A DNA stretch of 46,599 nt from Thermodesulfovibrionales bacterium (GTDB lineage Bacteria > Nitrospirota > Thermodesulfovibrionia > Thermodesulfovibrionales > SM23-35), in assembly GCA_049700155.1 (NCBI GenBank), contig JBNAVX010000021.1:1-46599 (forward strand), read 5' to 3'. Positions 31,846-33,954 of this stretch are shown here, piece by piece; position 1 is the first letter of the stretch, and every line of letters begins with the position of its first letter. Both the position numbers and the translations under genes were made by a program. Below the pieces are notes generated by a model. That model searched no databases. It was given only the letters and a program-made list of their open reading frames with translations, and was not told the origin of the DNA.

Positions 31846-33954
31846 ATGAATATCTTTAAGAGATCAGAAGATAAGCTACAGGCTGCAACGATTGAGGAGA
31901 TAAGGCAGGTAATTGCCTCATCTAAGATACCACCTTATGTCCAGCAGGTCGCAAAAAAGGAGCTTGATATGCTATCGAAGACAAGCCCTACTGTAGCGGA
32001 ATATGCGATAGGGCTTGCATACATTGAATATCTTGTCAGTTTACCATGGGATAAGAAGACTGAGGACTGCCTCGATCTTGAGAGGGCTGAAAGAATCCTG
32101 AACGAAAGGCACTATGGATTGCAGATGGTTAAGGAGAGAATCTTAGAGCACCTATCAGTAAAGATCTTAATAGCAAATAAAAAACCAAGAATTCTGGTTG
32201 TAGATGATGAAGAAGTTGCAAGAAAAAACTTAGAACATATATTGAAGAAAGAAAACTATACAGTTGTCACAGCAGCGAATGGAGCAGAAGCTATTAAGAA
32301 GATGGAGGCATCTAATTTTGATGTGATTCTTACTGATATCAGAATGGAGAAGGTTAACGGGATTGAGGTTCTTGAAAGGGCTAAAAACATATGCCCCGAG
32401 ACCAAGGTTATCATGATTACTGGTTATGCATCAGTGGACTCTGCTGTTGAGACTATGAAGAAAGGTGCATTTCATTATATTGAAAAGCCCTTTAAGGTTG
32501 ATACAGTGCGCTCAGTTGTAAAAAATGCAATTGAGAAGAAGCTGTCAACTATCTCTACAAAAGGCTCTGTATTATGCTTTGCAGGTCCACCGGGAACAGG
32601 GAAGACCTCACTGGGTAAGTCTATTTCTGATGCACTTGGGAGAAAGTTTGCGAGGATCTCTCTTGCAGGTATGAAAGATGAGGCTGAGATCAGAGGACAT
32701 AGAAGGACATATGCAGGTGCAATGCCCGGGCGTATTATTGAAGAGATTAGACGTGTAGAATCTTCTAATCCTGTCTTCATGCTCGATGAGATTGATAAGA
32801 TAGGACAGGACTTTAAAGGTGATTCTGCCTCTGCACTGCTTGAAGTACTCGACCCTGAACAGAATCAAAATTTTCTCGACCACTATCTTGATGTACCTTT
32901 TGACTTATCTGGCGTGATGTTTATTGTAACGGCAAATATTGCTGACAATATTCATGATGCACTCAGAGACCGAATGGAAGTAATCGAACTATCAGGCTAT
33001 ACAGAGGATGAAAAGATAAAGATAGGCTTACAGTATCTTGTTCCGAAGCAGATCCGTGAACAGGGACTATCAGATTATCCACCTGAATTTACTCCTGAGG
33101 CTATATTAAAGATCGTTCATGAATATACACGAGAAGCAGGCATCCGCAATCTTGAGAGGCAGATCGCCAACATCTGTAGAAAGATTGCCACAGAATATGT
33201 CCATCATAAAAAGAATATTCAAAATATTAAAGTGACACCCCGCGAGGTAGAGAAATATCTTGGAACGAGAAAATACTACAGAGAGGTTGCTGATGAGGAG
33301 AATAGGATTGGTGTAACTACTGGTCTTGTATGGACAGAAACAGGTGGAGAGATTATCTTTGTAGAGGCTGCGAAGATGAAGGGAAATAAACAATTAATAC
33401 TGACTGGTTCCCTGGGGAATGTAATGTGTGAATCAGCACATGCAGCATTGAGTTATATAAGGAGCAATGCATCAGTCTTCAACATCCCTGACAACTTCTT
33501 TGAGAACCATGACATCCATATCCATGTACCTGCTGGAGCCATACCAAAAGACGGACCATCTTCAGGGACTACGATCGCACTCGCTCTTATTTCACTTCTA
33601 ACCGGGGTACCTGCGAGGAGAGATGTAGCTATATCAGGTGAGATGACATTGAGCGGAAGGATACTTCCTGTTGGAGGTATCAAAGAGAAGTTGCTGGCTG
33701 CAAGACGGGCAGGAGTAAAAACAGTAGTCTTCCCTCTTAAGAATAAGGTAGATATTGAAAGTCTTCCTGAAGATGTAAAAAGAGGACTTGATATAAGACT
33801 TGTTGATAGAATCGAGGAGATCGTTCCTATTGTTCTAATGAATAAATCAAAGTCTGATATACAGGATAGGCAGAGGTCAAACCTTTTTCATTCAGAGGGA
33901 ATTGCAATCTGCAACATGAATACCCTTTCATGTAGCAGTATTAAAAAAGCTTGA
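31846..33954 (+). CDS. LonA-type protease lacking the N-terminal LON domain, with a receiver (REC) domain inserted into the AAA+ module
   Basis: LPW motif region, [17 protein letters not shown], then REC (nt about 32188-32541; Asp codon 32335-32337). This is followed by [37 protein letters not shown], and the protease domain PKDGPSSG...[10 protein letters not shown]. Confidence 0.85.
   Translation: [702 protein letters not shown]

What the first reader, a model, noticed from the sequence alone, without database searches (positions are those of the whole stretch)
31846..33954. Lon protease without its N-domain and with a receiver domain inserted into the AAA+ module
The translation is colinear with LonA from the helix before the LPW motif through the protease domain. 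The matching segments are [13 protein letters not shown]...[17 protein letters not shown], Walker A [29 protein letters not shown], Walker B FMLDEIDK, and an intact Ser/Lys dyad ([18 protein letters not shown]). It departs from LonA in two ways. First, the ~200-aa LON/PUA substrate-recognition domain is absent, since the protein begins about 65 aa before LPW. Second, a complete ~118-aa REC domain occupies nt about 32188-32541. This REC carries VVDDEE, DVILTD (Asp codon 32335-32337), IMITGY and EKPF. It sits exactly where LonA has a ~10-residue linker between the RILEYLAV helix and the first strand/Walker A. All phospho-acceptor pocket residues are intact. This suggests proteolysis or substrate gating controlled by phosphorylation, with REC placed where the N-domain normally sits. 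I am not aware of a characterised Lon with this architecture.
Basis: partly seen in the sequence, partly recalled or inferred. Interest (0 to 1): 0.85.

Follow-up and report, generated by a model that had tools for sequence, protein, structure and literature searches.

The report
Lon protease with built-in phospho-receiver domain
This gene encodes an ATP-driven Lon protease that has lost its usual substrate-binding head and carries a two-component "receiver" switch inside its motor. The design is conserved in hundreds of sulfur-cycling anaerobes and apparently unstudied, and it suggests that a sensor kinase controls protein degradation directly.

Summary
ORF 31846..33954 (+, 702 aa) is collinear with LonA from about E. 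coli residue 236 to the end of the protease domain. It lacks the LON N domain. A complete REC domain (aa 115-233) sits between helix alpha12 and strand beta1 of the AAA+ nucleotide-binding domain.

It is not an assembly chimera. The same architecture occurs in more than 240 protein clusters (90% identity). These include 45 non-redundant loci fetched here, mostly Thermodesulfovibrionales, and a Desulfobulbaceae clade that contains cultured Desulfobulbus propionicus DSM 2032. The family is monophyletic (100/100 bootstraps).

The receiver pocket (D120, D121, D164, T192, K214), the Walker motifs, the pore tyrosine and the Ser572/Lys615 dyad are invariant.

The gene sits in a module conserved across two phyla: a histidine kinase, a sigma54 NtrC-type regulator whose REC is 56% identical to the Lon REC, and a USP-like/membrane/TauE/tandem-Usp operon with sigma54-like promoters.

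Best reading: a response regulator with a proteolytic output, forming one branch of a split two-component pathway. Phosphorylation control, its direction and the substrates are inferred, not shown. I found no paper describing it. I rate it a new variant of a known kind.

The parts
31846..33954 (+). REC-Lon gene, 702 aa: helical N-region, REC, AAA+ module, S16 protease
   Evidence: ORF. Pfam and NCBIfam. PDB alignment. AlphaFold model with pLDDT 82.8 and pTM 0.75. Foldseek TMt 0.93 to 3m6a_A.
31846..32178 (+). aa 1-111: retained C-terminal part of the LonA helical region (three-helix bundle with the LPW motif, plus the alpha12 helix). The N domain is absent.
   Evidence: Aligns to residues 252-342 of chain 6u5z_A and to BsLon construct residues 9-103. 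Helices 7-25, 30-44, 51-65, 78-88 and 93-111. The N-terminus is conserved in orthologs: F4 is invariant and query residue 1 is matched.
32188..32544 (+). aa 115-233: receiver (REC) domain inserted between alpha12 and beta1 of the AAA+ NB domain
   Evidence: PF00072 E 8e-30. (beta-alpha)5 fold at pLDDT about 90. 56% identical to the REC of the neighbouring NtrC-type regulator.
32335..32337 (+). Codon for D164, the predicted phospho-acceptor aspartate
   Evidence: Translates to D. Invariant in 43/43 and 84/84 sequences, together with D120, D121, T192 and K214.
32545..33225 (+). aa 234-460: 8-residue linker, then the AAA+ large and lid subdomains. Walker A is 32584-32607, pore-1 Tyr289 is 32710-32712, Walker B is 32773-32799.
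   Evidence: PF00004 and PF22667. Motifs invariant in orthologs. Coordinates.
33229..33840 (+). aa 462-665: Lon_C (S16) protease domain. Catalytic Ser572 is 33559-33561 and Lys615 is 33688-33690.
   Evidence: PF05362 E 8.6e-83. The A-type motif PKDGPS is present, and S572 and K615 are invariant.
33841..33951 (+). aa 666-702: C-terminal tail, predicted disordered, found only in the closest relatives (most orthologs end at about 666 aa)
   Evidence: pLDDT below 50 for residues 668-702. Ortholog lengths.
29800..31344 (-). Divergently transcribed membrane histidine kinase (HAMP-HisKA-HATPase_c), the candidate phosphodonor
   Evidence: Pfam. Adjacent to REC-Lon in 18 of 26 loci with 5 kb or more on both flanks, and in Desulfobulbus.
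28439..29800 (-). sigma54-dependent NtrC-type response regulator (REC-Sigma54_activat-HTH_8), co-operonic with the kinase
   Evidence: Pfam. Its REC is the closest relative of the Lon REC in the same loci, at about 49-58% in most loci (39.5-46.8% in the Desulfobulbus-clade loci) against 37-47% for other NtrC-type regulators there.
31580..31594 (+). sigma54-type -24/-12-like element TGGCATGGAATATGT, 48 nt upstream of the small ORF that precedes lon
   Evidence: Sequence. The same element lies 44-66 nt upstream of the orthologous genes in other loci. 11 of the 28 strict matches in 1.33 Mb fall in the 35 upstream windows, where about 0.1 is expected.
31628..31807 (+). 59-aa ORF with the conserved motif FAEAGE(Y/F)(D/E)TAREI(L/M), ending 38 nt upstream of lon. 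It is a module member and a candidate partner or substrate.
   Evidence: ORF with a Shine-Dalgarno sequence. Orthologs are 45-85% identical and lie next to REC-Lon in 28 of 45 loci in three different orientations. The motif was not found in the 36 canonical-Lon loci.
34126..36852 (+). Downstream operon: 158-aa protein (same FAEAGE N-terminal motif plus a USP-like domain), 83-aa membrane protein, TauE/SafE permease, tandem-Usp protein
   Evidence: ORFs. Pfam TauE and Usp, plus a weak Usp hit for the 158-aa protein. The operon is conserved beside REC-Lon in Nitrospirota and Desulfobulbus. In Desulfobulbus the USP-like and membrane parts are fused.

Best explanation
The gene encodes a LonA-derived AAA+ serine protease that has been turned into a response regulator.

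Shown:
- The LON N domain and most of the helical HI(CC) region are gone.
- The protein starts at about the position where crystallographers truncate LonA (EcLon residue ~236).
- It keeps the three-helix bundle and helix alpha12.
- It carries a complete NtrC-type receiver domain, tethered at both ends: 3 residues after alpha12 and 8 residues before beta1/Walker A.
- ATPase, pore-loop and protease catalytic residues are all intact, so it is expected to be an active ATP-dependent protease.

Inferred:
- The neighbouring HAMP histidine kinase phosphorylates both its operon partner, a sigma54 NtrC-type activator, and Asp164 of the Lon REC. This would be a branched pathway.
- The activator switches on sigma54 promoters in front of the small FAEAGE-motif gene (and, in this window, lon itself) and the USP-like/membrane/TauE/Usp operon.
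- The phosphorylation state of the in-cis REC changes Lon activity. REC helix alpha5 feeds directly into beta1 next to the nucleotide pocket and subunit interface. The most likely route is therefore control of AAA+ ring assembly or ATPase competence, as REC domains do in NtrC1/DctD-type activators.
- Without the N domain the enzyme is probably a dedicated regulatory protease, not a general quality-control one. Its targets are likely module components.

The direction of the switch (on or off) and the substrates are unknown.
For: Architecture and insertion point.

Intact chemistry under selection: D120, D121, D164, T192, K214, the Walker A and Walker B acidic residues (D314, E315, D317, K318), Y289, S572 and K615 are invariant in 43 full-length orthologs. 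They are also invariant in an 84-sequence alignment spanning two clades at 50-90% identity.

Not an artefact: all of the top 120 hits and all of the top 120 carry PF00072 plus Lon_C. 45 non-redundant REC-Lon loci were fetched (42 with the REC-containing match in the GTDB scan; counted). The finished genome of D. propionicus DSM 2032 carries the gene.

Single origin: REC-Lon is monophyletic against 33 canonical LonA in 100/100 NJ bootstraps, using non-REC columns only.

Conserved module despite rearrangement: the kinase plus NtrC-type regulator are present in 18 of 26 loci with full flanks. USP-like/Usp genes are present in 20-21 of 26. The same set is found in Desulfobulbus.

REC kinship: the Lon REC is 56% identical to the adjacent NtrC-type REC, including the alpha1 'KNLEH' kinase-docking stretch. 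Family-wide means are 51% to module regulators and 37% to other regulators.

sigma54-like promoters are strongly enriched upstream of module genes.

Precedent for REC control of AAA+ assembly: group 1 bEBPs (PMC7175178). N-domain-less LonA fragments still form hexamers (PMC6722904).
Against: - No biochemical or expression data exist. Phosphotransfer, its effect on activity, and the substrates are all inferred.
- The AlphaFold model is a monomer and its coordinates could not be inspected, so the position of REC in a hexamer is unknown.
- About a quarter to a third of loci with full flanks lack the kinase/NtrC pair nearby. A subclade is an orphan in housekeeping contexts (L016, L020, L052), so the partnership is not universal.
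- The -12 element of the putative sigma54 promoters is non-canonical (TTGT or ATGC/T instead of TTGC).
- The FAEAGE motif is absent from the Desulfobulbus module, so it cannot be a universal degron.
- High REC similarity could reflect common descent only, not a shared kinase.
Confidence: 0.62

Rival explanations
1. REC acts as the substrate- or partner-recognition module, not as an allosteric switch. The Lon REC would heterodimerise through its alpha4-beta5-alpha5 face with the closely related REC of the module's NtrC-type regulator, or with another receiver. Lon would then degrade that regulator in a phosphorylation-dependent way, terminating the signal as negative feedback. Here REC functionally replaces the lost N domain.
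For: The substrate-binding N domain is missing, so another recognition element is needed. The Lon REC is unusually similar to the partner regulator's REC: 56% in the window, and about 49-58% in most loci. NtrC-family receivers are known to dimerise (established knowledge; PMC7175178). Lon degrades two-component regulators elsewhere, for example FixT (abstract of 10.1101/2024.02.05.579008, listed).
Against: There is no direct evidence of heterodimerisation. Orphan REC-Lon genes without a nearby NtrC-type partner exist. The similarity is equally explained by a shared kinase or by common descent. This reading is compatible with the main explanation and not exclusive of it.
Confidence: 0.15
2. REC is a structural or pseudo-signalling domain. 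It replaces the N domain's role in stabilising the hexamer, or acts as a phosphate sink for the kinase. Proteolysis would be constitutive and not regulated by phosphorylation.
For: The LonA N region contributes to oligomer stability (established knowledge). Some receiver domains act as phosphate sinks or work without phosphorylation.
Against: All five phospho-pocket residues, plus the switch residues Y194, H210 and Y211, are invariant or nearly so across two phyla. That is not expected for a purely structural domain. The link to a kinase is conserved. The short tethers at both ends of REC next to the nucleotide site favour allosteric coupling.
Confidence: 0.12
3. Assembly or gene-calling artefact: a chimeric join of a response-regulator gene and a truncated lon gene.
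For: The window is probably a metagenome-assembled sequence. No read data are available.
Against: Identical junctions occur in more than 240 independent protein clusters, 45 non-redundant loci and the finished genome of a cultured strain. The reading frame is continuous. The Lon sequence is contiguous on both sides of REC. The family is monophyletic.
Confidence: 0.01

Closest known systems
LonA (endopeptidase La; MEROPS S16 subfamily A; TIGR00763), e.g. E. coli, B. subtilis and Meiothermus taiwanensis Lon
   Same: The AAA+ module and S16 protease are 50-58% identical to canonical LonA. The A-type PKDGPS Ser motif, the Ser-Lys dyad and the pore-1 Tyr are present. The three-helix bundle with LPW and helix alpha12 are retained. 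The model superposes on truncated LonA chains with TMt 0.90-0.93.
   Different: There is no LON N domain, and the first ~235 residues of the N-terminal region are missing. A 119-residue REC domain is inserted between alpha12 and beta1. The family forms its own monophyletic clade with a dedicated two-component neighbourhood.
NtrC1/DctD/NtrC4-type bacterial enhancer-binding proteins (REC-AAA+ response regulators)
   Same: An NtrC-subfamily REC lies immediately N-terminal to an AAA+ beta1/Walker A. Its best REC matches are NtrC1, NtrC4, AtoC and the adjacent sigma54 regulator. The precedent is phosphorylation-controlled AAA+ ring assembly (PMC7175178).
   Different: The AAA+ module is of the Lon type, not the sigma54-interaction type (no PF00158 hit on this protein). 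There is no DNA-binding domain. The output is a protease. REC is an internal insertion with Lon helices on its N-terminal side, and the REC-AAA+ linker is only about 8 residues, not a coiled coil.
Receiver-domain adaptors of AAA+ proteases acting in trans: RssB (ClpXP/sigmaS) and CpdR (ClpXP, Caulobacter)
   Same: Both use receiver phosphorylation state to govern regulated proteolysis by an AAA+ protease (established knowledge; RssB review PMC7226468 listed). CpdR and RssB models give REC-level hits to this protein.
   Different: Those are separate proteins that deliver substrates to, or prime, ClpXP. Here the REC is covalently built into the Lon protease itself.
LonB and LonC, which carry insertions within the AAA+ module
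   Same: They show that Lon AAA+ modules tolerate large inserted domains (PMC9569914).
   Different: The LonB membrane anchor and the LonC insertion lie at other positions and are not signalling domains. The protease motif here is A-type. TIGR00764 (LonB) scores only 111 bits against a cutoff of 516.

Membership tests
LonA (S16 subfamily A, endopeptidase La) | AAA+ module with Walker A/B, pore-1 Tyr, sensor residues and Arg finger | tested here: met
   PF00004 and PF22667 hits. GPPGTGKT, the Walker B acidic core (D314, E315, D317, K318), Y289, TAN, R376 and R434/R438 are invariant in orthologs.
LonA (S16 subfamily A, endopeptidase La) | C-terminal S16 protease domain with the A-type motif (Pro before the catalytic Ser) and Ser-Lys dyad 42 residues apart | tested here: met
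   PF05362 E 8.6e-83. PKDGPS572 and K615, which is 42 intervening residues as described for Lon in PMC9569914. Both are invariant.
LonA (S16 subfamily A, endopeptidase La) | N-terminal LON/PUA-like substrate-binding N domain (PF02190) | tested here: not met
   No PF02190 hit at E<=0.01. The protein starts at the equivalent of LonA residue ~236. The N-terminus is conserved among orthologs.
LonA (S16 subfamily A, endopeptidase La) | Complete helical HI(CC) domain between the N domain and the NB domain | tested here: not met
   Only the part equivalent to EcLon ~236-342 is present, i.e. helices alpha8-alpha12.
LonA (S16 subfamily A, endopeptidase La) | Score above the curated TIGR00763 equivalog cutoff | tested here: met
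   714.8 bits against a cutoff of 608.05, in two stretches interrupted by REC. NF008053 (PRK10787) scores 580.6, below its cutoff of 891.
LonA (S16 subfamily A, endopeptidase La) | ATP-dependent proteolytic activity as a hexamer | not testable with these tools
   Needs biochemistry. Only a monomer model was obtained.
Two-component response regulator (REC superfamily, PF00072) | (beta-alpha)5 receiver fold | tested here: met
   PF00072 at 103.7 bits against a cutoff of 30.2. AlphaFold gives five strand-helix units at aa 115-233 with pLDDT about 90.
Two-component response regulator (REC superfamily, PF00072) | Acidic pair, phospho-acceptor Asp, Thr/Ser and Lys of the active site | tested here: met
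   D120, D121, D164, T192 and K214 are present and invariant in 43/43 and 84/84 sequences.
Two-component response regulator (REC superfamily, PF00072) | Cognate histidine kinase and actual phosphotransfer | tested here: inconclusive
   A kinase gene is adjacent in the window and in 18 of 26 loci with full flanks, and in Desulfobulbus. It is co-operonic with another regulator, and some loci are orphans. Phosphotransfer itself cannot be tested here.
Bacterial enhancer-binding protein (NtrC family) | sigma54-interaction AAA+ domain (PF00158, GAFTGA loop) and an HTH DNA-binding domain | tested here: not met
   No PF00158 or HTH_8 hit on this protein. NtrC/AtoC models match only its REC, aa ~114-235.
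LonB / LonC | B-type protease motif and a membrane-anchor insertion (LonB), or an ATPase-dead AAA-like domain with insertion (LonC) | tested here: not met
   TIGR00764 scores 111 bits against a cutoff of 516.6. The A-type PKDGPS motif and intact Walker motifs are present.

The most novel reading that the evidence does not exclude
REC-Lon is the proteolytic arm of a branched two-component circuit. One kinase would switch on sigma54 transcription through its NtrC-type regulator. At the same time it would switch an AAA+ protease on or off through an in-cis receiver that has imported the bEBP logic of phosphorylation-gated ring assembly into Lon. This would be the first AAA+ protease whose unfoldase motor is directly gated by aspartyl phosphorylation. 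Its dedicated targets would lie within the module: the FAEAGE-motif proteins, the USP-like protein or the regulator itself.
Probability: 0.35. Interest if true: 0.8.

Novelty: new variant of a known kind. Interest (0 to 1): 0.64.

Why it matters
Regulated proteolysis by AAA+ proteases is normally tuned in trans, by adaptors, anti-adaptors, small ligands or substrate modification. Response regulators are known to touch it only as separate adaptor proteins such as RssB and CpdR.

A Lon with a functional-looking receiver wired into its ATPase would be a direct, one-polypeptide link between environmental sensing and protein degradation. It would also be a natural experiment on two questions. What does the LonA N domain do, given that here it is dispensable? 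How can an AAA+ ring be gated allosterically from the alpha0/beta1 junction?

The family has a cultured, genome-sequenced member (Desulfobulbus propionicus DSM 2032). It also has a compact conserved gene module with obvious candidate partners. The idea is therefore immediately testable, and the domain could be useful as an engineerable phospho-switch for targeted proteolysis.

Tried and rejected
1. Chimera or misassembly. Rejected: the junctions are conserved in hundreds of independent assemblies and in a finished genome.

2. REC fused to Lon in other ways. The high-scoring multi-stretch hits in the 50%-representative search (P0123-P0132) looked at first like possible multi-REC Lons. Inspection showed tandem duplications of the Lon helical and AAA+ modules with no REC. 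Only P0121 and some fragments are REC-Lon at that clustering level.

3. A canonical sigma54 promoter (TGGC-N8-TGC) near lon. The exact consensus gave no hit near the gene and was not enriched in the window. A relaxed -24/-12 pattern was then found and shown to be enriched upstream of module genes.

4. sigma70 promoter and terminator scans of 31300-34700. These were no better than shuffles.

5. Pfam assignment of the 59-aa and 83-aa ORFs. None was found. The 158-aa protein has only a sub-threshold Usp hit.

6. The FAEAGE motif as a universal degron. Weakened, because the motif is absent from the Desulfobulbus module.

7. Literature. Nine of ten full-text searches ran and two further attempts were rejected on query format. 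The searches, and targeted look-ups in a serine-protease architecture survey and a Lon classification paper, found no mention of a REC-containing Lon. Galperin's 2006 response-regulator census could not be retrieved.

8. Placement of REC in the hexamer.

9. Whether the same genomes also keep a canonical LonA.
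Full report
**1. The observation**

The ORF at 31846..33954 (+) encodes 702 aa. Pfam finds Response_reg (aa 116-225, E 8e-30), AAA (243-382), Lon_lid (405-456) and Lon_C (462-665, E 8.6e-83). There is no LON N-domain hit. NCBIfam TIGR00763 'endopeptidase La' scores 714.8 bits against a cutoff of 608, but in two stretches.

A phmmer search of PDB sequences shows why. Residues 15-109 align to B. subtilis Lon construct residues 9-103 and to residues 252-342 of chain 6u5z_A. Residues 235/238-669 align to residues 103-535 and 347-775 of the same chains. About 125 residues are therefore inserted between positions that are contiguous in LonA. On their own, those residues match NtrC1/NtrC4-type receivers.

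**2. Anatomy**

The natural N-terminus corresponds to about residue 236 of E. coli-type Lon. That lies within a few residues of the starts of the N-domain-less crystallographic constructs: EcLon 235-584, BsLon 240-774 and MtLon 242-793 (PMC6722904).

The three-helix bundle carrying LPW, and the helix equivalent to EcLon alpha12 (aa 331-341), are retained. That paper takes alpha12 as the first element of the AAA+ NB domain. REC therefore lies between alpha12 and beta1, inside the AAA+ module by that definition.

An AlphaFold2 model built on an 84-sequence alignment has mean pLDDT 82.8 and pTM 0.75.
- Helix 93-111 runs almost directly into REC strand beta1 at residue 115.
- The (beta-alpha)5 receiver spans 115-233 at pLDDT about 90.
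- Its last helix (218-233) is joined by about 8 residues to AAA+ beta1 (242-246) and Walker A.
- The last 35 residues are disordered.

Foldseek against the PDB returns only ordinary Lon chains: 3m6a_A with TMt 0.93 and rmsd 2.6 A, and 6u5z_A with TMt 0.90. No solved chain combines REC and Lon.

**3. Is it real, and how widespread?**

The 120 best hits in a 5.8-billion-protein database are 72-95% identical. Every one carries both PF00072 and Lon_C. Where named, they come from Nitrospirota/Thermodesulfovibrionales MAGs and are labelled 'endopeptidase La'.

A scan of one genome per GTDB species returned 42 loci with the REC-containing form, and canonical, REC-less LonA below that. With three further homolog loci this gives 45 non-redundant REC-Lon loci. 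Most are Thermodesulfovibrionales or Nitrospirota. Four are Thermodesulfobacteriota, Desulfarculales or 'Deltaproteobacteria'.

A second search seeded with the most distant representative (P0121, 52% identical) revealed another 120 clusters, again all REC plus Lon_C. These are from Desulfobulbaceae and include cultured Desulfobulbus propionicus DSM 2032. The gene lies in that strain's finished genome.

On non-REC columns, the REC-Lons form one clade against 33 canonical LonAs in 100/100 neighbour-joining bootstraps. This indicates one origin, not recurrent fusions. Assembly chimerism is excluded.

**4. Are the parts functional?**

In 43 full-length orthologs from the Nitrospirota-type loci plus P0121, and in the 84-sequence two-clade alignment, the following are invariant:
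- the receiver acidic pair D120/D121, the acceptor D164, T192 and K214;
- the Walker A motif and the acidic core of Walker B;
- the pore-1 Tyr289;
- the catalytic Ser572 and Lys615.

The switch-region residues Y194, H210 and Y211 are invariant among the 43 or nearly invariant across both clades. The sensor-1 and arginine-finger positions are also invariant, and the sensor-2 stretch is conserved. This conservation pattern indicates a phosphorylatable receiver and an active ATP-dependent protease.

**5. Genomic context**

In the window, the gene is flanked upstream and divergently by a HAMP-HisKA-HATPase_c kinase (29800-31344). The kinase is co-operonic with a sigma54 NtrC-type regulator (28439-29800).

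Between the kinase and lon lies a 59-aa ORF (31628-31807) with a good ribosome-binding site. Downstream are:
- a 158-aa protein with a sub-threshold Usp match;
- an 83-aa membrane protein;
- a TauE/SafE permease;
- a tandem-Usp protein.

The 59-aa and 158-aa proteins share an N-terminal motif, FAEAGE(Y/F)(D/E)TAREI. These are its only two occurrences in the six-frame translation of the window.

The same gene set accompanies REC-Lon in other genomes, although order and orientation are shuffled.
- Of 26 loci with 5 kb or more on both sides, 18 have the kinase/NtrC pair and 20-21 have the Usp and USP-like genes.
- The module recurs in Desulfobulbus. There the USP-like domain and the small membrane protein are fused into one 280-aa protein, and the FAEAGE motif is absent.
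- The motif-bearing genes were found only in REC-Lon loci, not in the 36 canonical-Lon loci.
- A minority subclade is an orphan in unrelated contexts.

**6. Links to the signalling pair**

The Lon REC is 56% identical to the REC of the adjacent NtrC-type regulator over 117 residues without gaps, including the alpha1 stretch KNLEH. It is 35% identical to another receiver in the window.

Across loci, identity to the module regulator is about 49-58% in most loci (39.5-46.8% in the Desulfobulbus-clade loci). Identity to other NtrC-type regulators in the same loci is 37-47%, and to unrelated receivers about 30%. Group means are 51% against 37%.

A sigma54-type -24/-12-like element, TGGCA(C/T)-N5-(A/T)TG(C/T), lies 44-66 nt upstream of the FAEAGE-motif genes in many loci. 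Of 28 strict matches in 1.33 Mb of REC-Lon loci, 11 fall in the 35 130-nt upstream windows, where about 0.1 is expected. In the window the element is at 31580-31594, upstream of the small ORF and lon. A weaker TGGTAT variant precedes the 158-aa gene. The -12 part is non-canonical, so this remains a prediction.

**7. Mechanism**

Shown:
- a LonA core without the N domain;
- an intact, selected NtrC-type receiver tethered by very short linkers at the alpha12/beta1 junction;
- conserved linkage to a kinase, a sigma54 regulator and a USP/TauE operon.

Inferred:
- The kinase phosphorylates both receivers, giving a branched pathway.
- The NtrC-type regulator drives the sigma54 promoters of the module.
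- Phosphorylation of D164 alters Lon activity. REC helix alpha5 feeds straight into beta1 beside the nucleotide pocket and the inter-subunit face. REC domains of the same subfamily control AAA+ ring assembly in group 1 enhancer-binding proteins (PMC7175178). Control of hexamer assembly or ATPase competence is therefore the most likely mode.
- The N domain is the main substrate-recognition element of LonA (established knowledge). The enzyme is therefore probably a dedicated regulatory protease. Candidate targets are the module's own proteins.

The sign of the regulation and the substrates are unknown.

Rival readings:
- REC acts as a bait that heterodimerises with the partner regulator.
- REC is structural, or acts as a phosphate sink.
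- The gene is an assembly artefact (excluded).

**8. Comparison with what is known, and novelty**

The protein is LonA-derived. It passes the TIGR00763 cutoff, has the A-type protease motif and has a LonA-like fold. It fails two defining LonA features: the N domain and a complete HI(CC) domain.

It meets the sequence and structure criteria of a response regulator. It is not an enhancer-binding protein, because it has no sigma54-interaction domain. It is not LonB or LonC.

Known receiver control of AAA+ proteolysis acts in trans, through RssB or CpdR with ClpXP. Here the receiver is in cis.

Full-text searches and two Lon survey or classification papers gave no description of the architecture. 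It has existed in databases under automatic names since the D. propionicus genome.

I rate it a new variant of a known kind. It is of real interest to the AAA+ protease and two-component signalling fields, but it rests on inference until biochemistry is done.

Noticed in passing
window 31628-31807 (+) and 34126-34602 (+): A 59-aa ORF just upstream of lon and the 158-aa ORF just downstream share an N-terminal motif, (L)xKKxExxxxxxxFAEAGE(Y/F)(D/E)TAREI(L/I). No Pfam family matches. The small protein is strongly conserved, including its basic C-terminus RPRKELRAPGIKR. It stays next to REC-Lon through several gene-order rearrangements. Its function is unknown; it could be an adaptor, a substrate or a regulator.
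   Followed up: partly
window 31580-31594 and 34060-34075 (+); equivalent sites in L003, L006, L008, L009, L011, L043, L045, L047: sigma54-like -24/-12 elements with a conserved TGGCA(C/T) but a non-canonical -12 (TTGT or ATGC/T) lie 44-66 nt upstream of the motif-bearing genes. They are strongly enriched there (11 of 28 strict matches). This suggests that sigma54 promoters in this phylum may have an unusual -12 element.
   Followed up: partly
window 30061-30156 (-), aa 397-428 of the histidine kinase: The kinase's HATPase_c domain carries a ~30-residue insertion with three conserved cysteines, C-x9-10-C-T-G-(E/K)-C-P. The insertion is present in one subclade of the module kinases, reduced to one Cys in another, and absent in the rest, including Desulfobulbus. 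It may be a redox- or metal-sensitive element.
   Followed up: partly
window 22444-27925 (+), also 4253-5158 (+): A second, paralogous set lies 4 kb upstream. It comprises a dCache-PAS histidine kinase, a single-domain receiver, a TauE/SafE permease, a 140-aa membrane protein and a tandem-Usp protein. A third tandem-Usp gene lies at 4253-5158. The TauE plus tandem-Usp pairing under two-component control is repeated in this genome.
   Followed up: no
L085 6668-7510 (-) (Desulfobulbus propionicus CP002364.1): In Desulfobulbus the USP-like domain (equivalent to the window's 158-aa protein, without the FAEAGE motif) is fused to the small membrane protein (equivalent to window 34664-34915). This Rosetta-stone fusion suggests the two act together at the membrane alongside TauE.
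   Followed up: partly
proteins P0123-P0132 (sequences): Several long Lon homologs (889-1379 aa) contain two or three tandem copies of the LPW helical region plus the AAA+ module before a single protease domain. In some, the upstream copies have degenerate motifs. These are stacked-ring-like Lon variants unrelated to the REC insertion.
   Followed up: no
window 33841-33951 (+), aa 666-702: The window protein and its closest relatives (702-707 aa) have an extra ~37-residue C-terminal tail containing Cys residues (…[18 protein letters not shown]). Most orthologs (~666 aa) lack it. It is predicted to be disordered.
   Followed up: no
L016, L020, L052 (and probably L014, L018, L031): A subclade of REC-Lon genes lies outside the kinase/NtrC/TauE/Usp module, in unrelated contexts: a PIN-domain gene and an ABC-F ATPase in L016, and ribosomal protein L25 and peptidyl-tRNA hydrolase in L020. 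These are orphan receiver-Lons whose kinase must be encoded elsewhere.
   Followed up: partly
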